Source of the DNA: Patescibacteria group bacterium
Lineage (GTDB): Bacteria > Patescibacteriota > Patescibacteriia > Patescibacteriales > UBA12465
Assembly (NCBI GenBank): GCA_041661685.1
Contig: JBAZTY010000001.1
Location: forward strand, 192,691 to 256,690
Direction: 5' to 3'
Length of the DNA: 64,000 bases
Each line of letters opens with the position of its first letter. Position 1 is the first letter of the stretch. Shown piece after piece: positions 17,041 to 46,086 of this stretch. Under the pieces are notes generated by a model that did no database searches, had not been told where the DNA came from, and saw only the letters and a list, made by a program, of their open reading frames with translations. Both the position numbers and the translations under genes were made by a program.

Positions 17041-17952
17041 ATGAACATTAATTTTGAAAAGATAAATAACCAAGAAGAAAAGCGGAAAAAGGATGATGAG
17101 TTCTTTGCTACGCGGCACAGCATATCCGGATATAAGTTGAATGAAAGTATAATAAAATCAGATAATCCCGAGGCCGCTCCGAGTGCGGATAAACAATGGT
17201 TTAATTCTGATCTAACATCGGAAGGGGAAAAGCTGGCCCATGAAAAAGCCGCTGAGTTTTTTGATAAGCTTAATCCAGAAACTGATGCTTTATTTTTTGT
17301 TTCCAGCGACCTGGTAAGAGCAGCCGAAACGGCTAAGATTTATCTAGATACCGCGAGAGAAAAGGGGTTCGAGATTATCGCGCCTAGAGAGAAAAAGGAG
17401 GAAGAGGTGGATGAGCTCCCTAAATATAGAAATAAAGTTGAAGAAATCGGTGAGGGCTACATTAGAAAGATAGACTGCTTAACTTTGGATCATCTGGAAA
17501 ATATGCTGCGAGAGTTTATTTTTCATCCCGATAATTATTTAAAGAAAATTAAAAATCCGGAGAACATCTCAGCCGAAACTAAAGAAAAGTGGGCAGAGGC
17601 TAGGAAAATAATTGAGGCGGATAATAGAGGGACTTGGGGTAATAATTATGCTGCTCACTCCGAGGAAATTGGGAAGATATTCCCGAACGTTAAATCAGCT
17701 AAGGAGGTTTATGAGTCTAAATTCAAAGATATGATGCGGCTCGTCCGGTTTGGAAACGAAAAAATAAAACAACATAATCCGGAAAAGAATATTAAAATTA
17801 TGGCTTTCAGTCATGAGAATTCTTTCCTTTATTTTCTGAATAATAATTTCGGTGAATCCATGAAAAACTGCGAAAGCATCGCTTTTAAAGTTCAAGATAA
17901 CGATGAAATAACCGTCGCCGCCAAGGGACAAACTAAAAACGTAAAAGATTAA
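17041..17952 (+). CDS. Histidine-phosphatase-superfamily-like protein (weak)
   Basis: ATRHSISGY near the N-terminus and AFSHENSF near the C-terminus resemble the RHG / SH motifs of the PGM-like superfamily. Confidence 0.35.
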   Translation: MNINFEKINNQEEKRKKDDEFFATRHSISGYKLNESIIKSDNPEAAPSADKQWFNSDLTSEGEKLAHEKAAEFFDKLNPETDALFFVSSDLVRAAETAKIYLDTAREKGFEIIAPREKKEEEVDELPKYRNKVEEIGEGYIRKIDCLTLDHLENMLREFIFHPDNYLKKIKNPENISAETKEKWAEARKIIEADNRGTWGNNYAAHSEEIGKIFPNVKSAKEVYESKFKDMMRLVRFGNEKIKQHNPEKNIKIMAFSHENSFLYFLNNNFGESMKNCESIAFKVQDNDEITVAAKGQTKNVKD

Positions 17953-17953
17953 T

Positions 17954-18835
17954 ATGAAAGTCGCCGTATTGGGGCCGATTGCAAAGGATCGCGTTAAAGT
18001 AGATGATAACCTATCAATCCAGATCGGTGGCATTCCATATTACGTAGCTTTAGCTCTTAAAGCTTTAAACGTAGAAAAAGTCGTGCCTTATATAAGTTGC
18101 GGTCAGGAAGATAACGAGTGGGTTCAAAATAATTTTTCCGGCCTGAAAGTCAGGTGCTTGCCGGCAGAAAGAACATTAGAGTCTAATTTAGAGTATTCAT
18201 CCTTTAACCCAGACGTGCGAAAACATGAGATCAGATGCTATGATAATACTATCAAACCTACCGGCGAGTTGTTAAGGGAACTAGAAGGATATGATTATAT
18301 AATTCTGGGGCCGCTATTCCATGATAATATTCCTTTTGAATTATTTAATAAATTAAAACATAAAAATCTGGTCTTGGGTAATTTTGGAATGTTCACTTAT
18401 GGCGAAAACGGAAAATTTGTCAGAAAAAACCCGGAAAACTTGATTAAAGTTTTGCCATTCTTAAAATATTTGTTTTTAGACAGAAACGAGGCTGAGTTCG
18501 TATCCGGAAAGAATACCATAAAAGAAGCGGCGCGTTTTTTTCAGAATCATAGCTTACTTAACCTGATCATTACTGAAGGATCAAAAGGGTCCCATCTTTT
18601 TTTAGGAAAAGATTTTTATGATATTCTAGCTTTCAAGCCTAATATAATAACTGATCCCACTGGCGCCGGAGATACTTATTTAGCAGCTTTTATCAGAGCC
18701 TTAGAATTGTATAAAAATCCGGAGGAACGGGGAAGATTTGCTGCCATGGTTGCCACTATGTCTCTAGAAGAAAAAGGAGCTTTCGGAAAAACCTCTGAAG
18801 ACGTTCAAGCTAGATTAAATAAATCAACATGTTAA
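17954..18835 (+). CDS. PfkB-family carbohydrate/nucleoside kinase
   Basis: C-terminal DPTGAGDTYLAAF (PfkB signature 2) and an N-terminal GG dipeptide region. Confidence 0.8.
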   Translation: MKVAVLGPIAKDRVKVDDNLSIQIGGIPYYVALALKALNVEKVVPYISCGQEDNEWVQNNFSGLKVRCLPAERTLESNLEYSSFNPDVRKHEIRCYDNTIKPTGELLRELEGYDYIILGPLFHDNIPFELFNKLKHKNLVLGNFGMFTYGENGKFVRKNPENLIKVLPFLKYLFLDRNEAEFVSGKNTIKEAARFFQNHSLLNLIITEGSKGSHLFLGKDFYDILAFKPNIITDPTGAGDTYLAAFIRALELYKNPEERGRFAAMVATMSLEEKGAFGKTSEDVQARLNKSTC

Positions 18836-19410
18836 AATACCTCGTCTTCCTTGGAATGTCGGCGCAGTTCATCGGAATCTTTTATTATGGCCGGGAAGTC
18901 GTCAGAAAAAAAGTAAAGCCTAATAAAGTTTCTTGGTTGATGTGGTCTATCGCCCCCTTAATCGCTACGGCCGCCGGGCTAACGAGCGGCGCTGGCTTAT
19001 CAGTCATTCCGGTCTTCATGTCCGGCTTTGGTCCGCTGATAATATTTATCCTGTCTTTATTCGTTAAGAAATCATATTGGAAATTAGAATCCTTTGACTA
19101 TTTATGCGGGATATTTTCGTTATTAGCTCTAATCCTGTGGGGAATAACCAAACAGCCAGGGATAGCAATCATCTTCGCGATTTTAAGCGATCTGTTCGCG
19201 GCCATTCCGACTTTTATAAAATGCTGGAAATATCCGGAGACAGAAACCACAGTCGCCTATTCGACCGGACTGTTTAGCGCTTTCACTAGCTTCGGAGCGG
19301 TCAGAATATGGGGGTTCGCGGAATTAGCTTTTCCGATTTATCTGATTTTTGTTAACTCATCATTAATTTTAGCTATTATAAGGAAAAGAATATCACGAGT
19401 TTTCGCGTAA
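18829..19410 (+). CDS. Polytopic membrane protein, unknown function (translationally coupled to the PfkB kinase)
   Basis: 6 predicted TM helices. A 7-nt overlap with the kinase gene suggests a transporter/kinase pair. Confidence 0.5.
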   Translation: MLKYLVFLGMSAQFIGIFYYGREVVRKKVKPNKVSWLMWSIAPLIATAAGLTSGAGLSVIPVFMSGFGPLIIFILSLFVKKSYWKLESFDYLCGIFSLLALILWGITKQPGIAIIFAILSDLFAAIPTFIKCWKYPETETTVAYSTGLFSAFTSFGAVRIWGFAELAFPIYLIFVNSSLILAIIRKRISRVFA

Positions 19411-19425
19411 TGGTATAATAAACAC

Positions 19426-19686
19426 ATGAGTAAATATTTTCTTTATACCCTCAGATGTGCCGACAAGACGCTTTATACCGGGATTACTACGGATCTTAAT
19501 CGCCGGGTAAGCGAGCATAATTCGACTAGCCGAGGGGCGAAATATACTTGCGGCCGCAGGCCGGTTAGGCTAGTATATTCTAAAGAGTTTTCGAATCGTT
19601 CTACGGCCTCTAAAGAAGAAGCGCGGTTCAAGAAATTACCGCGTCCCGAGAAATTGGAAATTATAAAATCAGCCAAAAAGATATGA
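19426..19686 (+). CDS. GIY-YIG nuclease family protein (UPF0213-like)
   Basis: YFLYTLRCADKTLYTGITTDLNRRVSEHN. TGGTATAAT lies 6 nt upstream of the ATG. Confidence 0.8.
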   Translation: MSKYFLYTLRCADKTLYTGITTDLNRRVSEHNSTSRGAKYTCGRRPVRLVYSKEFSNRSTASKEEARFKKLPRPEKLEIIKSAKKI

Positions 19687-20459
19687 TGATGGAAAATTAC
19701 AGCCAGATTAGCAGCTCTGAAAATAACCAGATCAAATTACTGGAAAAACTGAATGCGAAAAAATATCGCCAAGAATTCCAGCAGTTTATGGTTGAGAACC
19801 TGACGATTATTAGCGACGCGCTGAAGGATGGCCACGACTTCGAGGCTTTATTCGTGACTGAAGAATTTGCCGCTAAGCATCGAGATAGGCTGGAATATCT
19901 TCAGAATAATTCTCAATCGTCAGATTTTTTCATGATCGGCCCTAAGCTGAATAAGCAATATTCTAATCTTGACACCCCTTCTGGCATTACTGCTATTTAT
20001 AAAATAAAGGCCAGGGAATTAGATGAATCATCAATTATCTACCTGAACGGCATCAGCGATCCGGGAAACTTAGGAACAATCATGCGCAGCGCCCTAGCTT
20101 TCGGTTTTATTAATCTGGTTTTAGATGAGAGCTGTGTAGATGTTTATAATTCCAAAGTCATCGCGGCCGCTAAAGACGCGATTTTTAAGCTTAATATCAT
20201 TGAAGATAAGACTGGAGAATGGCTCAAAAACAATAAATTGCCTATTTATGCGACTAGTTCTCATGAGGGTGTTAATCTGACGGAATTCAAACCGGCTAAG
20301 GCCTTCTGTTTAGTCTTGGGAAGCGAAAGCCATGGGGTCAGTCCGGAAATAATGAAACTGGCTAAGACCAATCTGAAGATTGAAATGTCTGAAAATATCG
20401 AATCTTTAAACGTGGCGACAGCGGCCGCTATTCTTCTTTATGAACTCAAACGGAAATAA
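19683..20459 (+). CDS. SpoU/TrmH-family RNA 2'-O-methyltransferase
   Basis: GNLGTIMRSA, LVLGSESHGVS and ESLNVATAAAILLYE motifs. Confidence 0.8.
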   Translation: MMMENYSQISSSENNQIKLLEKLNAKKYRQEFQQFMVENLTIISDALKDGHDFEALFVTEEFAAKHRDRLEYLQNNSQSSDFFMIGPKLNKQYSNLDTPSGITAIYKIKARELDESSIIYLNGISDPGNLGTIMRSALAFGFINLVLDESCVDVYNSKVIAAAKDAIFKLNIIEDKTGEWLKNNKLPIYATSSHEGVNLTEFKPAKAFCLVLGSESHGVSPEIMKLAKTNLKIEMSENIESLNVATAAAILLYELKRK

Positions 20460-31637: not shown

Positions 31638-32624
31638 ATGAATAAAAATAACGTTACCCGGGAGCAGATTTCTTTTAAGAAACCCTGGCATAAAGATTGG
31701 GTTAAGATTTTTTTGATTGTCTTGTTGCTGTCTAATTTGGCTACTATCGGCATATTAATAAATAAAAATAAGTTGGCTAAGCAGCTGCAGGAGGCGAAAA
31801 AATACCCTCTCCTGGACTTTTCTCGAAATTTCATCGATCAAGATAATTTCCTGAGCAGTATCGAGCCGATAAGAAAATCAATGAAGGAAGCCGTCGCCAA
31901 ATATGAGGCGCAAGGGAATAGGATTAGCGTTTATTTTGAATTCTTAAATACCGGAGCGAATATCTCTATTAATCAAGAAGAGCGTTTCTGGCCGGCTAGC
32001 TTAAGCAAGATGCCGACCGCGCTCGCGGTCATGAAGAAAGTAGAAAACGGGGAATGGAAGCTGAGTAATGAACTGGTGCTTTTCGCGGAAGACCAGGATT
32101 CTCGTTTCGGGGACATCTATCTAAAGACTCCGGGGACGCGCTTCACGATTGAAGAGCTCTTGAAAGAAACTTTGATAAACTCCGATAATACCGCTCATAA
32201 AATATTGGTGCGCAATTTATCTAGTGAAGATTACACGAAATCCTTTGAAGCTTTAGGGTTAGAAGAGTTATACGATGATAACTATGATATCACTGCCAAA
32301 GAATATTCCCGTATTTTTCGCGCTCTATACAGCGCCAGTTATCTTAATCGGGATAATTCCCAAAAATTATTATCATGGCTCACGCAGACGAGCTTTGATG
32401 AATTTATCGGCTCGGGAATACCGACTACGACATTATTTGCTCATAAAATCGGGGAGGAGTACAAGGAGGTCGTTTTCTTGGACTCCGGCATCTTTTATGT
32501 CGCTGGCCGCCCCTGCCTAATTACAGTCATGGCGGAGGTGAAGGACGGCGGCGGCGTCGGGAGCGCCCAGAAAATAATGGGGGAACTGTCAAAAATAGCC
32601 TATGATTACGTGGCGAATAAATAA
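31638..32624 (+). CDS. Membrane-anchored serine hydrolase of the class A beta-lactamase / PBP fold
   Basis: N-terminal TM. SxxK (PASLSKMP), SDN (INSDNTA), and a KTG-like HKIGE. Confidence 0.65.
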   Translation: MNKNNVTREQISFKKPWHKDWVKIFLIVLLLSNLATIGILINKNKLAKQLQEAKKYPLLDFSRNFIDQDNFLSSIEPIRKSMKEAVAKYEAQGNRISVYFEFLNTGANISINQEERFWPASLSKMPTALAVMKKVENGEWKLSNELVLFAEDQDSRFGDIYLKTPGTRFTIEELLKETLINSDNTAHKILVRNLSSEDYTKSFEALGLEELYDDNYDITAKEYSRIFRALYSASYLNRDNSQKLLSWLTQTSFDEFIGSGIPTTTLFAHKIGEEYKEVVFLDSGIFYVAGRPCLITVMAEVKDGGGVGSAQKIMGELSKIAYDYVANK

Positions 32625-35600
32625 AAAAATAAAGACGGTGATGATCGGTATGTTGATCGGCGTCTTTTTTTTATCCGGCTTTCCTTCTAACGTTTTCTTG
32701 GATAAATTAGAGGATTACCTAACCGATAAGAATATAGTCGATTCTCTTTATCATGCCATGAGAGATCCTAATGTCATAGATAGAGGCATGTCCGGACTAA
32801 TGGATGCTAAGACGCCTCAGGCTAATGCCGGAAATTTTCAAATCCAAACCGGCTATTACATCGGAAACGGCGGCGCTAAACAAATCAGCGGACTAGGATT
32901 CTCGCCGCAAATGATCCTCATAAAAGCCAACGATACCGGCGGCACCGGCGCGATCATGAAAACGACAGTCATGCCTAATCTCAATAGCTCATATCTCGGC
33001 GTCGCGACTGCTGACGTCGCAGCGGCCGTGCTGCTCAATCCCGACGGCTTTACTATCTCAGGCGTGACTACCAATACTGCTAATTCCCGCTATACTTGGA
33101 CAGCTTTTGCCGGTTCTGATTGTAGCGCCAGTGGCAATTTCTGCGTCGGCACCTATACCGGCACGGGCACTTCACCCCGATCGGTTACCGTCGGCTTCCA
33201 GCCCGATATGGTCATCGTGAAAGCGGCGACCGCAGTCGCCCCCAATTGGCGTTCATCGGCGATGCCCACTAATTACGGACAGCATTTTATGGCCACGAAC
33301 CAGACTACCGACGGTACTATGTATACCACTCTGGATTCTACTGGTTTTACTGTTGGCAGCGTGAATAATACCAGCGCGACCATCTACTATTATGTCGCTT
33401 TCAAGAATACGGCCGGTTCTATCAATGTCGGCACCTATGCCGGCACGGGCGTAGCTAAGAATGTCACCGGAGTCGGTTTTACCCCTAATTTTGCTTTGAC
33501 TAAGGCGGCGGCGCCGACGACAGCGACGGCGGCAATATATAATAATACGGAATCATATGGTAACTCCAGCAGCTACTTTACCGATACGGTCAATGTTGTC
33601 GGCGGCATCACCGGATTGGATAGCGACGGCTTCGGCGTCGGCACCGGAGCAATGGCTAATATCTCGGGGGCGACCTTCTATTACGCCGCTTTCGGTGGCG
33701 CTTCTGCTGTCAGGAATTCCAGCGGTACTTTTCAGATAGCGCGCGGAACTTACACAGGGACTGGTATAAATCGAGCGATTGATAATCTCGGTTTTAGACC
33801 GGATCTCGTGATCATCAAGGGGAATACGGCGACGGCTGGAGTTTTTAGAACCCGGCTGATGGGCGGAGACCACAGCGCTTATCTCGATGCGGCGACAGCT
33901 AACCTCACCGCCGCCATCACCTCTTTGAATCCTGACGGATTTACTGTTGGCACTGGCGCAACCACGAATAGCGCCGGCGTCACTTATTATTGGACTGCCT
34001 ATGGCAACGCCTGGAATCCGGAAACTAATTCCGGATCATCCGATTTCTATATTGGTGCTTATTATGGCAACGGAATCGATAATCGCAATGTCATCCGTCT
34101 GCCTTTTCAGGCTGACATGGTCGCGACTAAAAGAAACAGCACTACTGGCGGTGCTTTCCGCACCTCGGCGCATTCCGGCGATCTCAGCAGCTTTTTTGCG
34201 GCGACTGCGGAGGCGGCCAATAATATCCAGGTTCTCAATCCCGACGGATTCCAAATCGGCACGGGCACAAATGTCAATGCAGCCGCCAGTCTTTATCATT
34301 ATTTCGGCTTTAAATCCGGAGCTAATTTCGCCGTCGGCACTTATTCCGGCACCGGAGCCGCTAAAGATGTCACTACTGTCGGCTTCCAGCCTGATAATGT
34401 CTGGGTGAAACAGACTGGGGCGGTGCGAGGCGTGTCGCGGCATAGTAATCAATCCGGAGACGCCGCCTTGCCCTTCATTAACGTCGCCTCTATCACCGGA
34501 GCGTTCACCGGCCTGATCTCCACCGGCTTTTCTATCGGCGCTGGCGCGGAAACTAATACCTTGGGGACGAATAATTACCGTTATGCGGCGTGGCGGGCTA
34601 ATACTAGCCCGACGACTCCAAGCTATAAGATCCAAACCGGCTATTACATCGGAAACGGCGGCGCTAAACAAATCAGCGGACTAGGATTCTCGCCGCAAAT
34701 GATCCTCATAAAAGCCAACGATGCCGGCGGCACCGGCGCGATCATGAAAACGACAGTCATGCCTAATCTCAATAGCTCATATCTCGGCGTCGCGACTGCT
34801 GACGTCGCAGCGGCCGTGCTGCTCAATCCCGACGGCTTTACTATCTCAGGCGTGACTACCAATACTGCTAATTCCCGCTATACTTGGACAGCTTTTGCCG
34901 GTTCTGATTGTAGCGCCAGTGGCAATTTCTGCGTCGGCACCTATACCGGCACGGGCACTTCACCCCGATCGGTTACCGTCGGCTTCCAGCCCGATATGGT
35001 CATCGTGAAAGCGGCGACCGCAGTCGCCCCCAATTGGCGTTCATCGGCGATGCCCACTAATTACGGACAGCATTTTATGGCCACGAACCAGACTACCGAC
35101 GGTACTATGTATACCACTCTGGATTCTACTGGTTTTACTGTTGGCAGCGTGAATAATACCAGCGCGACCATCTACTATTATGTCGCTTTCAAGAATACGG
35201 CCGGTTCTATCAATGTCGGCACCTATGCCGGCACGGGCGTAGCTAAGAATGTCACCGGAGTCGGTTTTACCCCTAATTTTGCTTTGACTAAGGCGGCGGC
35301 GCCGACGACAGCGACGGCGGCAATATATAATAATACGGAATCATATGGTAACTCCAGCAGCTACTTTACCGATACGGTCAATGTTGTCGGCGGCATCACC
35401 GGATTGGATAGCGACGGCTTCGGCGTCGGCACCGGAGCAATGGCTAATATCTCGGGGGCGACCTTCTATTACGCCGCTTTCGGTGGCGCTTCTGCTGTCA
35501 GGAATTCCAGCGGTACTTTTCAGATAGCGCGCGGAACTTACACAGGGACTGGTATAAATCGAGCGATTGATAATCTCGGTTTTAGACCGGATCTCGTGAT

Positions 35601-37401
35601 CATCAAGGGGAATACGGCGACGGCTGGAGTTTTTAGAACCCGGCTGATGGGCGGAGACCACAGCGCTTATCTCGATGCGGCGACAGCTAACCTCACCGCC
35701 GCCATCACCTCTTTGAATCCTGACGGATTTACTGTTGGCACTGGCGCAACCACGAATAGCGCCGGCGTCACTTATTATTGGACTGCCTATGGCAACGCCT
35801 GGAATCCGGAAACTAATTCCGGATCATCCGATTTCTATATTGGTGCTTATTATGGCAACGGAATCGATAATCGCAATGTCATCCGTCTGCCTTTTCAGGC
35901 TGACATGGTCGCGACTAAAAGAAACAGCACTACTGGCGGTGCTTTCCGCACCTCGGCGCATTCCGGCGATCTCAGCAGCTTTTTTGCGGCGACTGCGGAG
36001 GCGGCCAATAATATCCAGGTTCTCAATCCCGACGGATTCCAAATCGGCACGGGCACAAATGTCAATGCAGCCGCCAGTCTTTATCATTATTTCGGCTTTA
36101 AATCCGGAGCTAATTTCGCCGTCGGCACTTATTCCGGCACCGGAGCCGCTAAAGATGTCACTACTGTCGGCTTCCAGCCTGATAATGTCTGGGTGAAACA
36201 GACTGGGGCGGTGCGAGGCGTGTCGCGGCATAGTAATCAATCCGGAGACGCCGCCTTGCCCTTCATTAACGTCGCCTCTATCACCGGAGCGTTCACCGGC
36301 CTGATCTCCACCGGCTTTTCTATCGGCGCTGGCGCGGAAACTAATACCTTGGGGACGAATAATTACCGTTATGCGGCGTGGCGGTTGCCCGATATCGCTA
36401 ATATTTCAATAGCCGCTTACGGTTCGCAAATCGCATCTCTCGGCATACCTTCAGCCGGACAATATCTCGGCGGCGCCTTTACTTTTATCAGAAGCGGCGG
36501 CTCGGCCAATATCACAAGCCTAACATTATCAGAAAATGGTACAGTCAACGCCTCTTCCTATATCTCCGAACTTACTTTGAAATATGAAATCGCCGACACG
36601 TGCAACTACGACGGCACCGAGGCTACCTTCGGCAACACCGCCTCTTTCGCCTCCGAGAAGGCAACGGTCAGCGGCAATATGCCAGTCGGCAGCGCGCAAG
36701 TCTGTCTTTATCCAATCATCACTGTCGGGACTGGAGTAGATAATGGCAGCACGCTTGATCTCAGCATCGATTCTTTAAGCGACATTTTAATCTCTTCCGG
36801 CTCCGGATCAGGTTCTTTCCCCGTAAATATCAGCGGCTTGACTAATCTGATTTCCGGATCGCTGACGGTTGATATCGTTGATAGTGATGGCAGTACTATC
36901 GCTAACCCATCTTTAGCCATGGATCCAATAAATTTTGCCTTTATCTCGCAAACCGCCAGCGGGACGCTAGGAGTCTCTTCTAAAAAAATCCGAATAGATA
37001 ATAATTCCGGTAATGCGCAATGGACGCTATCTATCGCGGCTACGGGGGGTAATACCAGTGTTTGGAGTGGCGCCGGAAATACCTACGATTTTAACGATAT
37101 CAGCGCCGGCGGTAATGATGGGGCAGATCTTGATTCTTATGGCGGCCAAATGAATTTCAATCCCGGGATCGCCGTCATCACCCCCGAGAGCGGCTGTGAA
37201 ACTACTGGCTTAACTCTAGGCAGTCCTTCATCTTTTGCGGAGGGAGTTCTCGACTCCGTCAACATATTAAGCGCTAACTCTTCAGCTCAGACCGGCTGTT
37301 ATTGGGATTTGACCGGAATCGGAATAAGCCAAACGATTCCCGCAGAACAAGTGACTGATAATTATTCGATTAATATGACTTTAACTATAACCGCCATATA
37401 A
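32602..37401 (+). CDS. Giant secreted repeat protein (about 1590 aa) with 12 ~100-aa modules and a C-terminal WxL-like domain (alternative start ATG 32641)
   Basis: N-terminal TM/signal MIGMLIGVFFLSGF. Twelve modules follow the pattern GxYxGxG..V.GVGFxPDxVxxK...LNPDGFTVG...YYYxAF. The C-terminal region is homologous to ORF 29742-30449 (..QWTLSIAA.., ..SQTIPAEQ..). Confidence 0.85.
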   Translation: MITWRINKKIKTVMIGMLIGVFFLSGFPSNVFLDKLEDYLTDKNIVDSLYHAMRDPNVIDRGMSGLMDAKTPQANAGNFQIQTGYYIGNGGAKQISGLGFSPQMILIKANDTGGTGAIMKTTVMPNLNSSYLGVATADVAAAVLLNPDGFTISGVTTNTANSRYTWTAFAGSDCSASGNFCVGTYTGTGTSPRSVTVGFQPDMVIVKAATAVAPNWRSSAMPTNYGQHFMATNQTTDGTMYTTLDSTGFTVGSVNNTSATIYYYVAFKNTAGSINVGTYAGTGVAKNVTGVGFTPNFALTKAAAPTTATAAIYNNTESYGNSSSYFTDTVNVVGGITGLDSDGFGVGTGAMANISGATFYYAAFGGASAVRNSSGTFQIARGTYTGTGINRAIDNLGFRPDLVIIKGNTATAGVFRTRLMGGDHSAYLDAATANLTAAITSLNPDGFTVGTGATTNSAGVTYYWTAYGNAWNPETNSGSSDFYIGAYYGNGIDNRNVIRLPFQADMVATKRNSTTGGAFRTSAHSGDLSSFFAATAEAANNIQVLNPDGFQIGTGTNVNAAASLYHYFGFKSGANFAVGTYSGTGAAKDVTTVGFQPDNVWVKQTGAVRGVSRHSNQSGDAALPFINVASITGAFTGLISTGFSIGAGAETNTLGTNNYRYAAWRANTSPTTPSYKIQTGYYIGNGGAKQISGLGFSPQMILIKANDAGGTGAIMKTTVMPNLNSSYLGVATADVAAAVLLNPDGFTISGVTTNTANSRYTWTAFAGSDCSASGNFCVGTYTGTGTSPRSVTVGFQPDMVIVKAATAVAPNWRSSAMPTNYGQHFMATNQTTDGTMYTTLDSTGFTVGSVNNTSATIYYYVAFKNTAGSINVGTYAGTGVAKNVTGVGFTPNFALTKAAAPTTATAAIYNNTESYGNSSSYFTDTVNVVGGITGLDSDGFGVGTGAMANISGATFYYAAFGGASAVRNSSGTFQIARGTYTGTGINRAIDNLGFRPDLVIIKGNTATAGVFRTRLMGGDHSAYLDAATANLTAAITSLNPDGFTVGTGATTNSAGVTYYWTAYGNAWNPETNSGSSDFYIGAYYGNGIDNRNVIRLPFQADMVATKRNSTTGGAFRTSAHSGDLSSFFAATAEAANNIQVLNPDGFQIGTGTNVNAAASLYHYFGFKSGANFAVGTYSGTGAAKDVTTVGFQPDNVWVKQTGAVRGVSRHSNQSGDAALPFINVASITGAFTGLISTGFSIGAGAETNTLGTNNYRYAAWRLPDIANISIAAYGSQIASLGIPSAGQYLGGAFTFIRSGGSANITSLTLSENGTVNASSYISELTLKYEIADTCNYDGTEATFGNTASFASEKATVSGNMPVGSAQVCLYPIITVGTGVDNGSTLDLSIDSLSDILISSGSGSGSFPVNISGLTNLISGSLTVDIVDSDGSTIANPSLAMDPINFAFISQTASGTLGVSSKKIRIDNNSGNAQWTLSIAATGGNTSVWSGAGNTYDFNDISAGGNDGADLDSYGGQMNFNPGIAVITPESGCETTGLTLGSPSSFAEGVLDSVNILSANSSAQTGCYWDLTGIGISQTIPAEQVTDNYSINMTLTITAI
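32842..36384 (+). repeat. In-frame tandem duplication: two 1755-bp copies (32842-34596 and 34630-36384) separated by a 33-bp linker, period 1788 bp
   Basis: Direct comparison at offset 1788. I found a single mismatch (A at 32935 versus G at 34723, Thr/Ala). All six-frame ORFs in the two copies are duplicated at exactly +1788 (for example 33553..33873 and 35341..35661). Confidence 0.95.
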
Positions 37402-37404: not shown

Positions 37405-38439
37405 TTGCCCGTGCGCTATAAAAACAAAAAAACAAGAATCTTCTTCCTTTCCTGCTGGCTGACCGCCGTAGCAGCTATTTTTATATCGGCGATCATGATC
37501 GACACAGCCAAGGCGGCTTCTTACGCCGGCCTAAAGATAAGCATTACTCCCGGACCAGAATGTTATGACGGGAAAGATAACGACAGCGACGGCAAGATGG
37601 ATTATCCGGCTGATTCAGATTGCGATTCCACGAATGATAACAGTGAATTTCCGCTTATCGTCAACAATGTAAGCAGCGGAGGGGGCGGAGGAAGCATCGC
37701 GCCGATAACCAGTGTCACCTTATCCGGCTATGCTTATCCTTTAAATAAGATAACTATCTTAAAAGACGGGCAAATCGCCTTAACTACTATCGCCGGACCC
37801 GATGCAATCTTTAATGCCGTCCTGACCGGACTAACAGAAGGGTTTTATAATTTTTCCATATACAGCGAAGATATCTACGGATTAAAATCAGGTGCCTTCA
37901 CGTTCCCAGTTTACATAACTAAGGGCGCCAGCACTAATATCGGCGGCATCTTTCTCGCCCCGACTATAAAATTAGATAAAGAAAGCGTTAAAAGCGGAGA
38001 TAATATTACGATTCTCGGGCAGAGTGCGCCTAACGCCGAAATAAATATTACTGTCAATTCAGAAAAGGAGAATATCATCAAAACTAAAACCGACCAGAAC
38101 GGCGTCTATTCTTATGATTTCGATACCGCCCTCTTGGAACTCGGAGATCATAGCGCCAAATCCAAATCAACGTTGAAGAAGCAAGTCAGTTCCTATAGCA
38201 AAATAGTCGGCTTCAAGGTCTTTGAGGATAAAGCCTCCGCGGCCGCTTATGAGGAAGAGAAGCAAGGGGAAACGGCGAAGGGCGACTTCAATAATGATAA
38301 CAAGGTCGATCTGATAGATTTTTCTATCCTGTCCTATTGGTACAAGAAACCGCAGCCGCCGACGATAGTGGACATGAATAAGGACGGCCGCATAAATATC
38401 ATAGATTTTTCTATCCTAGCTTTTAGCTGGACAGGTTGA
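37405..38439 (+). CDS. Secreted protein with Cys/Asp-rich metal-binding-like motif, Ig-like domains and a C-terminal dockerin-like module
   Basis: Signal/TM. CYDGKDNDSDGKMDYPADSDCDS. The C-terminus has two EF-hand-like repeats, GDFNNDNKVDLIDFSIL and DMNKDGRINIIDFSIL (dockerin type I pattern). Confidence 0.7.
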   Translation: MPVRYKNKKTRIFFLSCWLTAVAAIFISAIMIDTAKAASYAGLKISITPGPECYDGKDNDSDGKMDYPADSDCDSTNDNSEFPLIVNNVSSGGGGGSIAPITSVTLSGYAYPLNKITILKDGQIALTTIAGPDAIFNAVLTGLTEGFYNFSIYSEDIYGLKSGAFTFPVYITKGASTNIGGIFLAPTIKLDKESVKSGDNITILGQSAPNAEINITVNSEKENIIKTKTDQNGVYSYDFDTALLELGDHSAKSKSTLKKQVSSYSKIVGFKVFEDKASAAAYEEEKQGETAKGDFNNDNKVDLIDFSILSYWYKKPQPPTIVDMNKDGRINIIDFSILAFSWTG

Positions 38440-40954: not shown

Positions 40955-42862
40955 ATGGTCAGTAAAAAGAAAAAATGGCTTATCGCGATAGCTTTCGTTA
41001 CGGTCGTTACGGCCTTATTTTTTATCTTTAAAAAAAAGCCGCAAAGCGAATATACGACCGTCGATCTCAAGAAGGGAACTCTCATCCAGACCGTCACTGA
41101 AGTCGGCACAGTTAAGGCAAGTAAGGAATTAGAATTGAATTTCGCGCTCAGCGGCAAGGTTAATAAAATAGCGGCTAAAGTCGGAGACCTGGTCAAAAAA
41201 GATGCTGTCTTAATGGAACTAGACTTAAATTCGCTACTTCTCAAGGAAAAGGAAGCGGCCTCGAGCATGGATGTGGCGCAAGCTAATTTAGATAAGCTCA
41301 TGAAAGGAGCTACTACCCAAGATATTGCTATCAGCGCCGCTCAAGAAGCTCAAGCCAAGAGTGCCTACGCGTCGGCAGAAAATGACTTGGCAAAAACCAA
41401 AGAATTGACCGCGGAAAATTTAAGTCAGGCCGCCAAGAAACTCGCCGATCTGGAATCATCCGCTAGCACCGATATTACGCCGCAAGAACAGGCCGTCGCG
41501 ACCGCCCAGACTAACCTGGCCAATACTAAAACTAATGCTCAGCAGACTACAGATAACAGCCGCGATGGCTTGATAAACACGGCTGACGCCAAAATAAGCA
41601 TCGCTAATAGCGCCCTAGATTACATCAATCGCCTCTTGGACGACGATGACTTAAAAAATACTTTTAGCGTTAAAGATTCGACGTCTCTACTCAACACTAA
41701 AAATGATTATGTCTTAGCGACGAACGCGAAGATCCCGGCCGTCACCGCTTTAATAACGGCCAAAGCTTTCTCGACTGAACCGAATTTGAAGAACTTAGTC
41801 AGTTTAAGCTTGGATTACCTTAAGATAACCAATCAGACAGCTAACGATTGCTTTAAAAGCCTAGAAAATACGGTCGTCTCTTCGGTCTTGCCGCAAGCGA
41901 CTCTAGACGCTTATAAGACCAATGTCAGCGCTAATCTAACGGCCGTCAGTACTGGGATAAGCGCCATCCAGACAGCCGACTATACCTTCCGTAATGCCTT
42001 GCTCTCTTATGACACTAGCATCGCTTCGGCGACTGACGCTTTGAATTCCGCCCAGGTAAACCTCGAAGACGCCTTAAAATCCGCTCGCAACGCCTATAAT
42101 TCTGCGAAATTAAGCGGCGAGAGCCAAGTAGCCGCCGCCCAAGCGAAACTGAACGCAGCCAAACAGGCTTGGGATGTCGCCCAAAAACAGCTGACCAGCA
42201 TCAAGACGCCAGCGCGGACCGAAGATATTAATCTAGCTAAAGCGCAATTGGCGCAAGCTCAGGCCAATCTCGATCTGATCAAGAAACAGGAATCGGAAAG
42301 CCAGATTATTGCTCCGATGGACGGTCAGATCTCTAAAATAAATTACGAGATTGGCGAACAGGTCTCTTCCAAGGCGGCCTTAGCCATGATTACGGAGAAT
42401 AATTTCGAAATCGAAGTCGATATCTCAGAAGCCGACATTTCCAAAGTTAAGATTAGCGACCGGGTCGTGATCGATTTCGATGCCTTCGGCGAGGCTAGAA
42501 AATTCAACGGTTTGGTCTATTTCATTGAACCGGCGGCAACCGTGATCCAAGACATAACTTATTATAAGGTCAAGATCAGCCTAGTCGACGCGCCAGAAAC
42601 TCTCAAGGATATCAAAGCCGGCATGACCGCCAATGTCATTGTCACTACCGATCAAAAAGATAATGTCTTCTTGGCGCCGGCGCGAGCGGTTATTGATAAG
42701 AACGGGTCGGGTAAAGTCGTCCGCATTTTAGAAAATAATAATACGGTTACAGAAATTCTGGTAACAGCGGGAATATCCGGCAATGACGGCTTAATGGAAA
42801 TAAGCGGCGAGGGCTTAACCGAGGGACAGAAGATAATCACCTTCATCAAAACCGTCAATTAA
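40955..42862 (+). CDS. HlyD/MacA-type membrane-fusion adaptor with an unusually long coiled-coil (635 aa)
   Basis: N-terminal TM, a lipoyl-like segment, about 350 aa of A/Q/L-rich coiled coil, then IIAPMDGQISKINYEIGEQV and KAGMTANVIV beta-barrel motifs. Confidence 0.8.
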   Translation: MVSKKKKWLIAIAFVTVVTALFFIFKKKPQSEYTTVDLKKGTLIQTVTEVGTVKASKELELNFALSGKVNKIAAKVGDLVKKDAVLMELDLNSLLLKEKEAASSMDVAQANLDKLMKGATTQDIAISAAQEAQAKSAYASAENDLAKTKELTAENLSQAAKKLADLESSASTDITPQEQAVATAQTNLANTKTNAQQTTDNSRDGLINTADAKISIANSALDYINRLLDDDDLKNTFSVKDSTSLLNTKNDYVLATNAKIPAVTALITAKAFSTEPNLKNLVSLSLDYLKITNQTANDCFKSLENTVVSSVLPQATLDAYKTNVSANLTAVSTGISAIQTADYTFRNALLSYDTSIASATDALNSAQVNLEDALKSARNAYNSAKLSGESQVAAAQAKLNAAKQAWDVAQKQLTSIKTPARTEDINLAKAQLAQAQANLDLIKKQESESQIIAPMDGQISKINYEIGEQVSSKAALAMITENNFEIEVDISEADISKVKISDRVVIDFDAFGEARKFNGLVYFIEPAATVIQDITYYKVKISLVDAPETLKDIKAGMTANVIVTTDQKDNVFLAPARAVIDKNGSGKVVRILENNNTVTEILVTAGISGNDGLMEISGEGLTEGQKIITFIKTVN

Positions 42863-42863
42863 T

Positions 42864-43577
42864 ATGCTTATCCGCATTAAAAATCTGCATAAAGATTATG
42901 GCAGCGGCGAAGAGTTGACTTCGGTCCTCCACGGCCTGAATTTCGAGATAGCCAAGGGGGAATTCGTTTCCATTATGGGGCCGTCCGGGTCAGGCAAATC
43001 AACCCTGATGCATATCCTCGGATTATTAGACAGCCCGACTACGGGCCAATATTTTTTAGAAGGGAAAAACGTCACGCATCTCGATGATGACAGCCTGGCG
43101 CAACTGCGCAACCGGGAAATCGGCTTCGTCTTCCAATCTTTCAATCTCTTGCCGCGCACGACCGTGCTCGATAACGTTAAATTGCCGCTCATATATTCCG
43201 ACGAGAAGATAGACGCCGATAAGCGCGCCCGGGAAGTCTTGGAAAGCGTCGGCCTCGGCCATCGCCTGGATTATTATACCAACCAGATTTCCGGCGGCGA
43301 AAAACAACGCGTCGCTATCGCCCGCGCCCTCGTCAATAATCCGAGCGTAATCTTCGCGGACGAACCGACCGGCAACCTTGATTCTAAATCAGGCACACAA
43401 ATTATGGAGATACTCCAGAAACTTAACGATGAGGGAAATACTATTATCCTAGTTACACATGAAACCTATACCGCGGAACACGCTAAAAGAATCATTAAGA
43501 TAAGGGACGGCGAGATCATCAGCGACGAAAAGATCGCTCATCGTCGCCGCGCCCATGATGGCGAATTATTAAAATAA
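42864..43577 (+). CDS. ABC transporter ATP-binding protein (MacB class)
   Basis: [39 protein letters not shown]. Confidence 0.9.
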
Positions 43578-44824
43578 TGCGTTTCCCTTTAAACCAATCG
43601 ATAAAGATTTCGACAGCGGCGCTTCTAACTAATAAAGCTAGAAGCTTTTTGACTATGCTGGGAATCATCATCGGCGTGGGCGCGGTCGTCATGATTATGT
43701 CATTAGGCGCAGGCGCGCAGAGCCTGATTATCGGCCAAATAAAGGGTTTAGGCGGAAATCTCATCGGTGTTCTGCCGGGAAAATCAGAGACTGACGGGCC
43801 GCCGGCTTCAGTCATGGGCGTCGCGATTACGACTTTAGTGGAGGATGACCTGGAGGCTATTCGCCGGCAAGTGCCGAATATCATCGGAGCCGTTGGCTAT
43901 TCGCGCAATCTAGCAACCGCTAGCTGGGGACAAAATAATTACGAGACTAATCTCAACGGCTGTTCCGTGGATTACTTGAAAGTCGAGGGTGGAGAAGTGG
44001 GCGTCGGCCGGTTCTTTACAGCCGAAGAAGACCGCGATATGGCCAAAGTCGCCGTTCTCGGCGCGACCGTCAAGCAGGAATTATTCGGCGATTCCGATGC
44101 TGTCGGACGTATTATTAAGATCAAGAAGCAGCCGTTTGAAGTCATCGGCGTGATGGCGCCGCGCGGCACAGTCGCTTTTGTCAATTACGACGACCAGATT
44201 AATATACCCTTGAAAACCGCGCAAAAAGTCATCAACGGCGTCAATCATCTCAGTTTCATCCGCATTAAAGCCGATAGTGAAAAAAGCGTCGATGAGGTAA
44301 TGGCGGAAACAACGCTTCTTCTCCGCGATCGTCACGATATTAAAAATCCCAGCGGCCAGGATGATGATTTCTCCGTCCGCAGCATGGCGCAAGCGCTCGA
44401 TATGATCATAACGATCACTAATGCGCTTAAATACTTTCTAATCGCCATGGCCGCTATTTCACTGGTTGTCGGCGGTATCGGCATCATGAATATCATGCTC
44501 ATCAGCGTTAGCGAAAGGACTAAAGAAATCGGCTTGCGCAAGGCCATTGGCGCTAATAACCGCCATATCATCTGGCAATTTCTGATCGAGTCGATGACGC
44601 TCACTTTGATCGGCGGCGCGGCCGGTACTGTCCTGGGAACTATCGGCTCGTGGCTCATCTCTCTAGTCGTGAATGATCTCGGCTATGATTATCAATTTAT
44701 CATCTCCATCTCTTCAGTGTTGCTCGCTTTGTCCGTCTCGACTCTCATCGGACTGATCTTCGGTTTATACCCGGCGCGCCAAGCCAGCCGATTAGAGCCG
44801 GTCGAGGCTTTAAGCTACGAATAA
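43577..44824 (+). CDS. ABC transporter permease, MacB/FtsX type (permease 1)
   Basis: N-terminal TM plus a MacB periplasmic-core-like domain and a C-terminal FtsX 3-TM bundle (ERTKEIGLRKAIGA). Confidence 0.85.
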   Translation: MRFPLNQSIKISTAALLTNKARSFLTMLGIIIGVGAVVMIMSLGAGAQSLIIGQIKGLGGNLIGVLPGKSETDGPPASVMGVAITTLVEDDLEAIRRQVPNIIGAVGYSRNLATASWGQNNYETNLNGCSVDYLKVEGGEVGVGRFFTAEEDRDMAKVAVLGATVKQELFGDSDAVGRIIKIKKQPFEVIGVMAPRGTVAFVNYDDQINIPLKTAQKVINGVNHLSFIRIKADSEKSVDEVMAETTLLLRDRHDIKNPSGQDDDFSVRSMAQALDMIITITNALKYFLIAMAAISLVVGGIGIMNIMLISVSERTKEIGLRKAIGANNRHIIWQFLIESMTLTLIGGAAGTVLGTIGSWLISLVVNDLGYDYQFIISISSVLLALSVSTLIGLIFGLYPARQASRLEPVEALSYE

Positions 44825-44826
44825 TT

Positions 44827-46086
44827 ATGGATAAGATTATCCCGGCGATAAAAATGGCTTTAAAGTCAATGGCCGCCAATAAAATGCGGACATTTTTGAC
44901 CGTGCTCGGCGTCATGATCGGCATTGCCAGTATCATTGTCGTCTATTCAGCCGGCGAAGGCATTAAGAGTCTGCTAGTCGCGCAATTAGAAGCTTTCGGC
45001 ACAAACATCATCGAAACGGAAATAAAAGTGCCATCTGCTAAGAAAGGCGCTGCTGGAGATACGGAAGGAGCAATGGCGATGGTTTCCGGCGTCCAAATAA
45101 CCACCTTGTCAGATGAGGATTTCGAAGATATCAAGAAACTTCCGAATATCACGAACGGATATGCCGCTATTATGGCTCAAGAAAAAGTCACTGTTGCCGG
45201 GGATTCTCGAAAAGCTACTATCTTCGGAGTGAGCGCCAGTTATCCCGATATTGATAAGAGCAAGATGGCTAGCGGCTTTTTCTATAGCGAGGCAGATGAC
45301 AACTCTCTCAGCCAGGTCGCGGTCTTGGGCAGCAAGATGAAAGACAAGCTTTTCGGCGAAGCTGACCCGATCGGACAGAATATCTCTATCCGCAAAGCTA
45401 AGTTCCGGATTATCGGCGTGATGGCTTCGCGCGGCGCGACTTTGGGCATGGATATGGATGATTATGTCTACGTGCCTGTCCATACTCTGCAGAAAAAAAT
45501 CATGGGCATTGATTATTATATGTACATGATCCACCAATTCCAAGATCCGAGCCGAGTAGCTGATACCGGAGAAGAAATCAGGCGCTTAATGCGCGATAAC
45601 CATGATATTACCGACCCAGCCAAAGACGATTTTCGCGTCTCGACTATGGAAGAGATGATGACGATGCTTGATACGGTCACCAACGCCCTGACTTGGCTCT
45701 TACTCGCTATCGTCATCATTTCGCTCATCGTCGGCGGCGTCGGGATATTGAACATCATGTATGTCATCGTCAGCGAAAGGACTTTGGAAATCGGTCTGAG
45801 AAAGGCGGTTGGCGCCAATTATGGACACATCATGACTCAATTCCTCGTCGAGGCCATACTAATCACGCTCTTCGGGGCGCTAGTCGGCGTGATTATCGGC
45901 GTCATCATCGCCAGACTAATCGCGCTCGGCGCCAGTTTCACCGGGTTAGCCTGGGAATTCCGCGTGCCCCTAAAAGCCTTCATCGTCTCCATCGGCTTCG
46001 CCTTCTTCTTTGGCGTCTTCTTCGGCGTCTACCCGGCGAAAAAAGCCGCTAAGATGAATCCGATAGACGCGCTTCGAAAAGAATAA
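44827..46086 (+). CDS. ABC transporter permease, MacB/FtsX type (permease 2)
   Basis: Same architecture as permease 1 (ERTLEIGLRKAVGA). It is a paralogous neighbour. Confidence 0.85.
   Translation: MDKIIPAIKMALKSMAANKMRTFLTVLGVMIGIASIIVVYSAGEGIKSLLVAQLEAFGTNIIETEIKVPSAKKGAAGDTEGAMAMVSGVQITTLSDEDFEDIKKLPNITNGYAAIMAQEKVTVAGDSRKATIFGVSASYPDIDKSKMASGFFYSEADDNSLSQVAVLGSKMKDKLFGEADPIGQNISIRKAKFRIIGVMASRGATLGMDMDDYVYVPVHTLQKKIMGIDYYMYMIHQFQDPSRVADTGEEIRRLMRDNHDITDPAKDDFRVSTMEEMMTMLDTVTNALTWLLLAIVIISLIVGGVGILNIMYVIVSERTLEIGLRKAVGANYGHIMTQFLVEAILITLFGALVGVIIGVIIARLIALGASFTGLAWEFRVPLKAFIVSIGFAFFFGVFFGVYPAKKAAKMNPIDALRKE

What the first reader, a model, noticed from the sequence alone, without database searches (positions are those of the whole stretch)
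32842..36384. Nearly perfect 1755-bp in-frame tandem duplication (period 1788 bp) inside the giant surface gene
Copy 1 (32842-34596) and copy 2 (34630-36384) are identical at every position I compared except 32935 A versus 34723 G (Thr/Ala). A unique 33-bp linker (34597-34629, ANTSPTTPSYK) separates them. Every incidental ORF in the other frames recurs at exactly +1788, confirming identity over most of the length. Identity this high in an otherwise divergent repeat protein indicates a very recent duplication or ongoing gene conversion. It predicts copy-number variation (1, 2, 3.. units of 596 aa) by homologous recombination, so the length of a surface fibre could vary within the population. 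It is also a classic site for short-read assembly collapse or expansion, so the true copy number is uncertain.
Basis: seen in the sequence. Interest (0 to 1): 0.7.

Follow-up and report, generated by a model that had tools for sequence, protein, structure and literature searches.

The report
Recombining twin blocks in surface protein
A large cell-surface protein gene of an uncultured Patescibacteria (CPR) bacterium has two 1,755-bp halves kept almost identical by recombination between them, and a half-length form of the gene occurs in other samples; this is a well-documented but ordinary kind of length-variable surface protein.

Summary
Window 32842-34596 and 34630-36384 differ at 1 of 1,755 nt (period 1,788), with a unique 33-nt in-frame linker between them. 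They lie in a 1,599-aa gene (32602-37401).

Each copy encodes six diverged DUF7483 beta-sandwich modules, a module also found in phage tail fibres.

It is not a new duplication. The two-block layout and its linker are conserved across dozens of Patescibacteria homologues. In 15 of 63 multi-block homologues the halves are 98-100% identical within a protein but only 50-78% identical between proteins. One relative has a 587-nt perfect tract inside halves that are otherwise 60-84% identical. This is concerted evolution by intragenic recombination.

The predicted copy-number variation exists. Two independent metagenome assemblies carry the same locus with 23 kb of identical flanks but one block and no linker. 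A third dataset's k=31 contigs break exactly 30 nt inside both block edges, as a tandem allele would cause.

A copy number above two, and hidden interior SNPs, cannot be excluded without reads.

Verdict: a new member of a known kind (Periscope-like variable-length surface proteins). Interest is moderate.

The parts
32602..37401 (+). Gene for a 1,599-aa DUF7483 surface protein. The layout is N-terminal signal/anchor, block 1, linker, block 2, C-terminal domain.
   Evidence: ORF listed. Pfam PF24299 DUF7483 scores 193.7 bits against a cut-off of 27. Gene callers elsewhere start at 32641, but the basic n-region (MITWRINKKIK) is conserved in homologues P0002, P0004, P0005 and P0006, which favours 32602.
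32602..32700 (+). Predicted signal peptide or membrane anchor: a basic n-region followed by the hydrophobic stretch TVMIGMLIGVFFLSGF.
   Evidence: Read from the sequence. The AF2 model shows helices at residues 2-11 and 17-29 of the 13-aa-shorter P0001 form. This is an inference; no dedicated predictor was run.
32701..32841 (+). Upstream flank L0, ending ...AKTPQANAGNFQ. It is unique and is not part of the repeat.
   Evidence: Identity at offset 1788 is at chance level. L0 tails resemble the L0 tails of other proteins (22%) more than their linkers (12%).
32842..34596 (+). Block copy 1 (585 aa), made of six diverged ~94-105-aa beta-sandwich modules. Module starts are at 32842, 33139, 33421, 33736, 34045 and 34327.
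   Evidence: In the AF2 model the block has pLDDT above 90 and is all-beta.
32935..32935 (+). The only difference between the copies: A here (Thr) against G at 34723 (Ala). It is the 94th nt of the block. The single-block allele carries A.
34597..34629 (+). Inter-block linker L1 (ANTSPTTPSYK). It is a positional orthologue of the linker in other two-block family members and is absent from the one-block allele.
34630..36384 (+). Block copy 2, identical to copy 1 at 1,754 of 1,755 nt.
36385..37401 (+). Unique C-terminal beta-rich domain (338 aa) plus the stop codon. If the N-terminus is the anchor, this is the presumed distal end of the protein.
   Evidence: No Pfam match. AF2 pLDDT is mostly 65-87, with a disordered stretch (below 50) at about residues 873-904. 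The domain is 33-50% identical in 6 related loci.
31638..32624 (+). Class-A beta-lactamase-like gene immediately upstream. It overlaps the start of the surface gene by 23 nt and is a conserved neighbour.
   Evidence: Pfam Beta-lactamase2, E = 6e-38. It lies directly upstream of the DUF7483 gene in 14 of 33 related loci.

Best explanation
The gene encodes a secreted or membrane-anchored fibre-like surface protein of a Patescibacteria (CPR, Parcubacteria-type) bacterium.

Its stalk is built from two 585-aa blocks, each made of six DUF7483 beta-sandwich modules. The two-block layout, including the short Thr/Pro-rich linker, is old and inherited.

The near-identity of the blocks is kept up by homologous recombination between them. 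This is non-reciprocal gene conversion, which overwrites one block with the other up to the point where homology ends at the linker and flanks.

The same recombination, resolved as a crossover between the direct repeats, deletes one block plus the linker. That gives a 990-aa (or 1,003-aa) half-stalk allele. Both alleles exist in nature on otherwise identical genomic backgrounds, so the length of the fibre varies within the species.

Shown here:
- the identity and its boundaries
- the old age of the architecture
- homogenisation that is independent in each lineage
- conversion tracts in relatives
- the one-block allele

Inferred:
- surface location and fibre function
- dependence on RecA
- any adaptive value of switching length
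For: 1. Exact boundaries. There is 1 mismatch in 1,755 nt, and the linker is unlike either flank. This is incompatible with a simple recent tandem duplication.

2. Old architecture. 58 of 121 family members have two blocks. The window's linker is on average 35% identical to the linkers of other proteins, 9% identical to their upstream flanks and 0% identical to its own upstream flank. In sister pairs with diverged halves, block 1 best matches block 1 and block 2 best matches block 2. These pairs and groups are P0007/10, P0020/23, P0027/29, P0032/33, P0045/46, P0048-50, P0056/58/60 and P0072/80/83.

3. Concerted evolution. 13 of 58 two-block proteins (15 of 63) have halves that are 97.9-100% identical, yet they are only 50-78% identical to any other protein. 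Sisters P0037 and P0038 are 76% identical to each other but 99.7% and 98.6% identical within themselves. No protein falls between 84% and 97.9%.

4. DNA level. L005, L021 and L022 have 0 mismatches in about 1,750 nt, and L014 and L033 have 1.

5. Visible conversion tracts. In L020, 24 mismatches lie in the first 264 nt, 10 in the last 35 nt and none in the 1,487 nt between. L026 has a 587-nt perfect tract inside halves that are otherwise 58-84% identical.

6. The deletion allele. ENA ERZ27249449 contig k141_825165 (202 kb) and Logan SRR6484324 carry the same locus with 0 mismatches over 11.2 kb upstream and up to 12.1 kb downstream. They have one block, no linker and the copy-1 allele A.

7. 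The tandem allele in an independent dataset. Logan contigs of SRR18595301 end at window 32871 and start at 36355. These points are exactly 30 nt (k-1 for k=31) inside the two block edges.

8. A second lineage shows the same 1-versus-2 polymorphism. L041 is the one-block form and L042 the two-block form. L041 matches block 1 of L042 at 100%. Its alignment to L042 from block 2 onward has 29 mismatches in 8.6 kb, and the two L042 blocks themselves differ at 28 positions, so the downstream flank is nearly identical.

9. Fibre-like nature. The AF2 model is all-beta with pLDDT above 90 across the block. It matches phage DUF7483 proteins with E = 5.6e-36, a chain of the cyanophage A4 portal-tail complex and PHROG 'tail fiber protein' with E = 6e-31.
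Against: - No reads were available. The window's copy number (2 or more) and the true number of interior differences are therefore unverified.
- A short-read assembler can give two near-identical copies the same consensus. The single visible mismatch lies 94 nt from a unique flank, which is where phasing is possible.
- In the window lineage itself, a single mismatch cannot separate conversion from cycles of unequal crossing-over.
- No recA or other recombination gene was examined.
- Surface location rests on reading the N-terminus, and no experimental function exists for DUF7483 (no paper mentions it).
- The inference for SRR18595301 relies on my knowledge that Logan contigs are built with k=31.
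- No GC3 signature of biased conversion was found.
Confidence: 0.85

Rival explanations
1. A very recent de novo tandem duplication of a one-block gene produced the two copies. On this reading the one-block allele in other samples is the ancestor.
For: There is only 1 mismatch in 1,755 nt. A one-block allele exists on an identical background. 63 of 121 family members have one block.
Against: A tandem duplication joins the end of the unit directly to its start. The 33-nt linker would then have to equal the 33 nt before copy 1 or after copy 2, but identity is at chance level. The linker matches the family's conserved inter-block linker, N-x-T/S...T-P-S/T-Y/F-K. The closest homologues P0002 (66%) and P0003 (63%) have the same two-block, same-length layout.
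Confidence: 0.04
2. The second copy in the window is an assembly artefact. On this reading the real genome has one block, as in the MEGAHIT and Logan contigs.
For: Two independent assemblies show one block with identical flanks. The two-block protein is absent from the 5.8-billion-protein collection. The junction is absent from JGI metagenome contigs. Seven of 33 related loci end inside this gene, which shows it is hard to assemble.
Against: An assembler cannot invent a 33-nt in-frame linker that resembles the linker of distant homologues. Contigs from SRR18595301 break exactly k-1 nt inside both block edges, as expected if the block has two predecessors and two successors in the reads. The same two-block structure with identical halves recurs in many other lineages from different assemblers.
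Confidence: 0.04
3. Homogenisation works mainly through cycles of unequal crossing-over (expansion to three blocks, contraction to two or one) rather than non-reciprocal conversion. The true array in some cells may hold three or more identical blocks that short reads collapse to two.
For: Deletion products exist, so crossovers between blocks do occur. A graph with a block-linker-block cycle looks the same for 2, 3 or more copies. Differences between halves sit at the outer edges of the blocks, as unequal crossing-over also predicts.
Against: No protein with three adjacent blocks was seen among 240 family members. The only three-block protein, P0121, has diverged blocks, and its third block lies about 350 aa away from the second. 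The internal 587-nt perfect tract in L026 and the internal tract in L020 need two exchange points, which means conversion.
Confidence: 0.15
4. The blocks are truly similar but less so than assembled (for example about 99%). On this reading interior differences were merged into one consensus by a short-read assembler, so the homogenisation looks more recent than it is.
For: The only mismatch in the window is 94 nt from a unique flank. In all 13 near-identical proteins the amino-acid differences lie within 79 residues of the left edge or 20 residues of the right edge.
Against: L007 keeps two interior mismatches, at nt 611 and 634, so interior differences can be assembled. Sharp steps from 9-14% divergence to 0% (L020, P0024) cannot be produced by collapse. 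In any case at least about 99% identity still requires homogenisation.
Confidence: 0.2

Closest known systems
Periscope Proteins: variable-length bacterial surface proteins such as SasG/Aap, Rib/alpha C and Sgo_0707 (Whelan et al. 2021, PMC8201768)
   Same: It is a large predicted surface protein whose stalk contains tandem repeats with very high DNA identity. Intragenic recombination changes the repeat number between closely related strains (1 versus 2 here), which changes the length of the protein. The repeats are folded beta-sandwich domains.
   Different: - The repeated unit is a 596-aa super-repeat of six mutually diverged domains, not a single domain.
- Only one or two units were seen, not arrays of up to 40.
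- The anchor appears to be N-terminal (signal/TM) and the unique domain C-terminal, the reverse of LPXTG proteins.
- The host is an uncultured CPR bacterium.
- Rod shape and ligand binding are untested.
Concerted evolution of duplicated bacterial sequences by gene conversion (for example duplicated tuf genes and rRNA operons; from my own knowledge)
   Same: Paralogous copies are more alike within a genome than between species, while unique flanks keep positional orthology. Conversion tracts have sharp ends.
   Different: Here the two copies are in-frame halves of a single gene, 33 nt apart. The same recombination therefore also makes deletion alleles that change the protein.
Phage DUF7483 / tail-fibre proteins (PHROG 24898; BFVD A0A6J5QL19; cyanophage A4 portal-tail complex chain 9k09_U)
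   Same: They share the module family and the fold of the multi-module array: E = 6e-31 by sequence profile and E down to 5.6e-36 by structure.
   Different: The window is cellular DNA (Kup, DEAD helicase, RNR, UvrABC, P-type ATPase) with no phage genes around it. The protein has an N-terminal signal/anchor rather than a virion attachment domain.

Membership tests
Pfam DUF7483 (PF24299) | Match to the family HMM above the gathering score | tested here: met
   193.7 bits against a cut-off of 27, in 6 stretches. One profile (330 positions) spans about three modules.
Periscope Proteins | Tandem repeats with very high DNA identity inside one gene | tested here: met
   1,754 of 1,755 nt are identical at period 1,788.
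Periscope Proteins | Repeat number varies between closely related strains | tested here: met
   One-block alleles with 23 kb of identical flanks occur in ERZ27249449 and SRR6484324. The tandem allele is implied in SRR18595301.
Periscope Proteins | The repeat unit is a single folded domain arrayed many times | tested here: not met
   The unit is six modules that are 23-42% identical to each other. Only 1 or 2 units were seen in 240 family members, apart from one diverged 3-block protein.
Periscope Proteins | Cell-surface attachment | tested here: inconclusive
   An N-terminal basic plus hydrophobic segment was read from the sequence and is conserved in homologues. No signal-peptide or TM predictor was available, and there is no LPXTG motif.
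Periscope Proteins | The repeat region forms an elongated rod that projects a distal functional domain | not testable with these tools
   The AF2 model is confident (pLDDT above 90 in the block, pTM 0.63), but its coordinates could not be inspected. The C-terminal 338 aa have no family match.
Concerted evolution by gene conversion | Copies are more alike within a lineage than between lineages, while flanks and linker keep positional orthology | tested here: met
   Within-protein identity is 98-100% against 50-78% between proteins. Linker orthology: 35% against 9%.
Concerted evolution by gene conversion | Discrete conversion tracts with two end points | tested here: met
   Seen in relatives: a 587-nt perfect tract in L026 and a 1,487-nt tract in L020. 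In the window itself the tract covers the whole block.
Concerted evolution by gene conversion | Dependence on the homologous recombination machinery (RecA) | not tested
   No recA was looked for. It would need the whole genome and an experiment.
Recent simple tandem duplication | The junction joins the end of the unit directly to its start, so any spacer equals the adjacent flank | tested here: not met
   Linker against the 33 nt after copy 2: 10 of 33 nt identical. The 60 nt before copy 1 against the 60 nt before copy 2: 13 of 60. Linker against the L0 tail: 0 of 11 aa.
Phage tail fibre gene (prophage) | Located among phage structural genes | tested here: not met
   The neighbours are LysM, beta-lactamase-like, dockerin and Big_13 proteins, a HlyD/MacB ABC system, Kup and a DEAD helicase. 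Only the module is shared.

The most novel reading that the evidence does not exclude
Across Patescibacteria this fibre family behaves as a two-state system. In one state the two 1.8-kb six-domain blocks are held identical by frequent conversion, which keeps the gene poised to switch between full-length and half-length fibres. In the other state they escape and diverge freely (no protein falls between 84% and 98% identity). The identical state would be selected because length switching of the fibre tunes attachment of these episymbionts to host cells, or helps them evade phages that use the fibre as a receptor. That would extend the Periscope principle to multi-domain super-repeats and to the CPR.
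Probability: 0.2. Interest if true: 0.6.

Novelty: new member of a known kind. Interest (0 to 1): 0.4.

Why it matters
Patescibacteria/CPR are mostly uncultured epibionts, and little is known about how they interact with host cells.

This finding shows that a widespread, conserved CPR surface-fibre family built from phage-tail-fibre-like DUF7483 modules exists in natural populations as full-length and half-length alleles on identical genomic backgrounds. Recombination between its two halves is active in many lineages.

It gives a concrete, PCR-testable marker of strain-level surface variation. It is also a clean natural example of concerted evolution with visible conversion tracts.

There is a practical warning too: this gene is systematically broken or collapsed in short-read MAGs, so its length in databases is unreliable.

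Tried and rejected
- **Tandem Repeats Finder** found nothing, because its longest period is 500.
- **Exact look-up of the 1,599-aa product** found nothing. The two-block allele is not in the protein collection.
- **Junction search.** The exact block-linker-block junction was not found in JGI metagenome contigs.
- **Source genome.** The window's own genome is not among the GTDB representatives; the best match is 66%. The organism is therefore named only from homologue titles (Colwellbacteria, Parcubacteria, Patescibacteria).
- **blastp self-comparison** does not report internal repeats. I replaced it with block-versus-protein searches.
- **GC-biased gene conversion.** GC3 of homogenised blocks is not consistently above that of flanking genes. 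The higher GC of the region comes mostly from its Gly/Ala/Thr-rich composition.
- **Silent donor cassette.** There is no other copy of the block in the window.
- **Databases with no match:** PDB sequences, NCBIfam, Pfam for the C-terminal domain, papers on DUF7483 or the sample accessions, and Rfam and tRNA in the window.
- **Prophage origin** was rejected from the gene context.
Full report
**1. The observation**

A base-by-base comparison shows that window 32842-34596 and 34630-36384 are both 1,755 nt and differ only at 32935 (A) versus 34723 (G). This changes Thr to Ala at residue 32 of the block. The period is 1,788 nt.

At the same offset, identity falls to chance immediately outside: 13 of 60 nt to the left and 10 of 33 nt in the spacer. 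The 33-nt spacer (34597-34629, ANTSPTTPSYK) is unique in the window.

The repeat lies in one ORF, 32602-37401, of 1,599 aa. Tandem Repeats Finder missed the repeat only because its period limit is 500.

'Giant' is an overstatement for a 4.8-kb gene.

**2. What the gene is**

The protein matches one Pfam family, DUF7483 (193.7 bits). Each 585-aa block consists of six modules of 94-105 aa with a shared motif pattern (G-x-Y-x-G-x-G ... G-F-x-P-D ... K ... D-G-F-x-V-G ... Y-x-Y-x-A-F/W). The modules are only 23-42% identical to one another.

The N-terminus has a basic n-region and a hydrophobic stretch, conserved in homologues. I read this as a signal peptide or membrane anchor, which is an inference. 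It also favours the start at 32602 over the 32641 start used by gene callers elsewhere.

The last 338 aa are a unique beta-rich domain with no family match.

I built an AlphaFold2 model of the one-block allele from 30 homologues. It is confident (mean pLDDT 82, above 90 over the block) and all-beta. Its matches are:
- phage DUF7483 proteins, E down to 5.6e-36
- a chain of the cyanophage A4 portal-tail complex, and the Ig-like stalks of adhesins such as PrgB
- a PHROG 'tail fiber protein' family, E = 6e-31 for the block

The surroundings are cellular, not viral:
- Kup, a DEAD-box helicase, LysM and beta-lactamase-like proteins upstream
- dockerin and Big_13 proteins and a HlyD/MacB ABC system downstream
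- RNR, UvrA/B/C and a P-type ATPase further away

Names attached to homologues (Colwellbacteria, Parcubacteria, Paceibacterota, Dojkabacteria, 'Patescibacteria group') place the organism in the Patescibacteria/CPR. The window's own genome is not among the GTDB representatives; the best match is 66%.

**3. Not a new duplication**

A simple tandem duplication joins the end of the unit to its start. Any spacer would then be a copy of the neighbouring flank. Here the linker shares 0 of 11 residues with the tail of the upstream flank, and nucleotide identity is at chance level. With one mismatch in 1,755 nt there has been no time for such divergence.

Instead the linker is a positional orthologue. 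Among 38 two-block homologues with short linkers, the window's linker is on average 35% identical (ungapped 11-mer) to their linkers but only 9% identical to their upstream flanks. The family consensus, N-N-x-T-P-T-T-P-T-Y-K, is close to ANTSPTTPSYK.

The nearest homologues P0002 (66% identity, 1,598 aa) and P0003 (63%, 1,599 aa) have the same two-block layout. In sister pairs whose halves have diverged, block 1 best matches block 1 and block 2 best matches block 2.

The two-block architecture is therefore old and vertically inherited.

**4. Concerted evolution**

Of 121 proteins (120 homologues plus the window), 58 have two blocks.

| Group | Number | Identity between the two halves |
|---|---|---|
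| Continuum | 45 | 40-84% |
| Separate group (includes the window, 99.8%) | 13 | 97.9-100% |
| In between | 0 | 84-97.9% |

A search of 50%-identity representatives added two more near-identical cases, P0122 and P0123, at 99.7% and 99.8%.

These proteins are only 50-78% identical to any other family member. The sisters P0037 and P0038 are 76% identical to each other but 99.7% and 98.6% identical internally. Homogenisation therefore happened after those lineages split, many times independently.

At the DNA level:
- L005, L021 and L022 have 0 mismatches in about 1,750 nt.
- L014 and L033 have 1.
- L007 has 7.
- L020 has 34.

Conversion tracts are directly visible:
- In L020, 24 mismatches fall in the first 264 nt, 10 in the last 35 nt and none in the 1,487 nt between.
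- In P0024, 11 of the first 79 residues differ and then none of the next 504, up to a last-residue difference at the block edge.
- In L026, halves that are otherwise 58-84% identical contain a perfect 587-nt tract. An internal patch needs two exchange points, which means non-reciprocal conversion.

I looked for a GC3 signature of biased conversion and found none.

**5. Copy-number variation is real**

I looked up the exact products of the neighbouring genes. This found the same locus in ENA assembly ERZ27249449 (MEGAHIT contig k141_825165, 202 kb) and in the Logan assembly of SRR6484324.

Both are 100% identical to the window over 11.2 kb upstream, and the ENA contig over 12.1 kb downstream. 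Both contain one block, no linker and the copy-1 allele A. Their product, P0001, is 990 aa, exactly 596 aa shorter than the window's product read from the same start.

The linker cannot be regenerated from a one-block gene, and it is ancestral. The direction of change is therefore two blocks to one, by a crossover between the direct repeats. A crossover anywhere downstream of nt 94 (95% of the block) gives allele A, as observed.

In a third dataset, Logan SRR18595301, one contig ends at window 32871 and another starts at 36355. Both are 100% identical to the window. These points are exactly 30 nt inside the left and right edges of the block. That is where unitigs of a k=31 graph must end if the block has two predecessors (upstream flank and linker) and two successors (linker and downstream flank). 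The value k=31 for Logan is from my own knowledge. This is independent evidence that the tandem allele exists in nature and is not an artefact of the window's assembly.

A second lineage shows the same polymorphism. L041 is a one-block allele that is 100% identical to block 1 of the two-block L042. Its alignment to L042 from block 2 onward has 29 mismatches in 8.6 kb; the two L042 blocks themselves differ at 28 positions, so nearly all of these should lie in the block, though their positions were not mapped.

**6. Caveats**

No reads were available. A block-linker-block cycle looks the same in an assembly graph for two, three or more identical copies, so the window's copy number is 'at least two'.

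Short-read assemblers can also give both copies one consensus. The only mismatch in the window lies 94 nt from a unique flank. In all 13 near-identical proteins the amino-acid differences sit within 79 residues of the left edge or 20 residues of the right edge. This edge pattern is expected biologically, because conversion and unequal exchange spare the outer edges. It is also what limited phasing would give.

Two results argue that it is at least partly real. L007 keeps two interior mismatches, and the steps from 9-14% divergence to 0% cannot come from collapse. Either way, at least about 99% identity requires homogenisation.

Seven of 33 related loci end inside this gene, which shows how badly it assembles.

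**7. Comparison with what is known**

The closest described class is the Periscope Proteins (Whelan et al. 2021, PMC8201768). These are surface proteins whose stalks are tandem arrays of folded domains with high DNA identity. Their repeat number changes by intragenic recombination between closely related strains.

Two defining features are met here: high DNA identity and repeat-number variation between near-identical strains. One is not met: the unit is a six-domain, 596-aa super-repeat present once or twice, not a single domain arrayed many times. Surface attachment is only inferred, and rod shape and a distal ligand-binding domain could not be tested.

It works like a Periscope Protein, but I do not file it as a proven member. 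The evolutionary process is ordinary concerted evolution by gene conversion. The module is shared with phage tail fibres, but the gene is not in a prophage.

**8. Verdict**

- ongoing gene conversion: yes
- recent duplication: no
- copy-number variation: yes, for 1 versus 2 units
- assembly caution: justified

The phenomenon is a new member of a known kind. It is of moderate interest because it occurs in a conserved surface-fibre family of CPR bacteria, recurs in about a quarter of two-block lineages, and is caught as a natural polymorphism.

Noticed in passing
window 31638-32624 (and L005-L028): A class-A beta-lactamase-like gene (Pfam Beta-lactamase2) sits directly upstream of the DUF7483 gene in 14 of 33 related loci. 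In the window it overlaps the gene's likely start by 23 nt. LysM/WxL-like and dockerin genes are also often kept nearby. Together they suggest a conserved cell-envelope gene cluster.
   Followed up: partly
L026 8238-11790 (JBMOHE010000001.1): A perfect 587-nt tract lies inside two blocks that are otherwise 58-84% identical. It is a clean partial gene-conversion tract between diverged halves.
   Followed up: partly
proteins P0027, P0029, P0040, P0041, P0045-P0051, P0053, P0055-P0060 (Dojkabacteria-type): In one clade the short inter-block linker is replaced by a whole ~105-aa fibronectin type III domain. None of these proteins has near-identical halves (46-78%).
   Followed up: no
window 32602 vs 32641: Gene callers in other assemblies start the gene at 32641 (MIGMLIG...). 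The conserved basic n-region of homologues (M-x-W-R-x-x-K-K) suggests the real start is 32602, which would make database entries 13 aa too short.
   Followed up: partly
L017, L018, L019, L029, L030, L031, L037: Seven of 33 related loci are contigs that end inside the DUF7483 gene. This is consistent with systematic assembly breaks at the repeated blocks in short-read MAGs.
   Followed up: no
proteins P0121, P0122, P0123: P0121 (2,898 aa) has three diverged blocks (55-64%), and the third lies about 350 aa downstream of the second. P0122 (3,197 aa) and P0123 (3,350 aa) are much longer family members whose two blocks are 99.7-99.8% identical.
   Followed up: partly
window 1-20000 vs 20000-64000: There is a compositional shift. 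GC is 0.32-0.37 with strongly positive GC skew (0.09-0.23) in most of the first ~18 kb, apart from a 0.40-0.43 stretch at 12-16 kb. Beyond that, GC is 0.42-0.53 with skew near zero. Nearly all genes are on the + strand throughout.
   Followed up: no
window 94-2621 and 40955-46086: There are two separate HlyD-like / ABC ATPase / FtsX-MacB permease modules within 64 kb of a small-genome bacterium. The second lies just downstream of the surface-protein cluster and could be its export or envelope partner.
   Followed up: no
window 37405-38439: The gene immediately downstream encodes a protein with a C-terminal dockerin type I domain. The 22-nt direct repeat spaced 87 nt apart (38309 and 38396) is probably the duplicated Ca-binding segment of the dockerin. 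The gene is conserved next to the DUF7483 gene in 6 related loci.
   Followed up: no
window 61404-63650 (- strand): A 748-aa ORF on the minus strand has no Pfam match at E <= 1e-5. It is one of only two sizeable (>=250 aa) minus-strand ORFs that do not overlap a larger plus-strand ORF.
   Followed up: no
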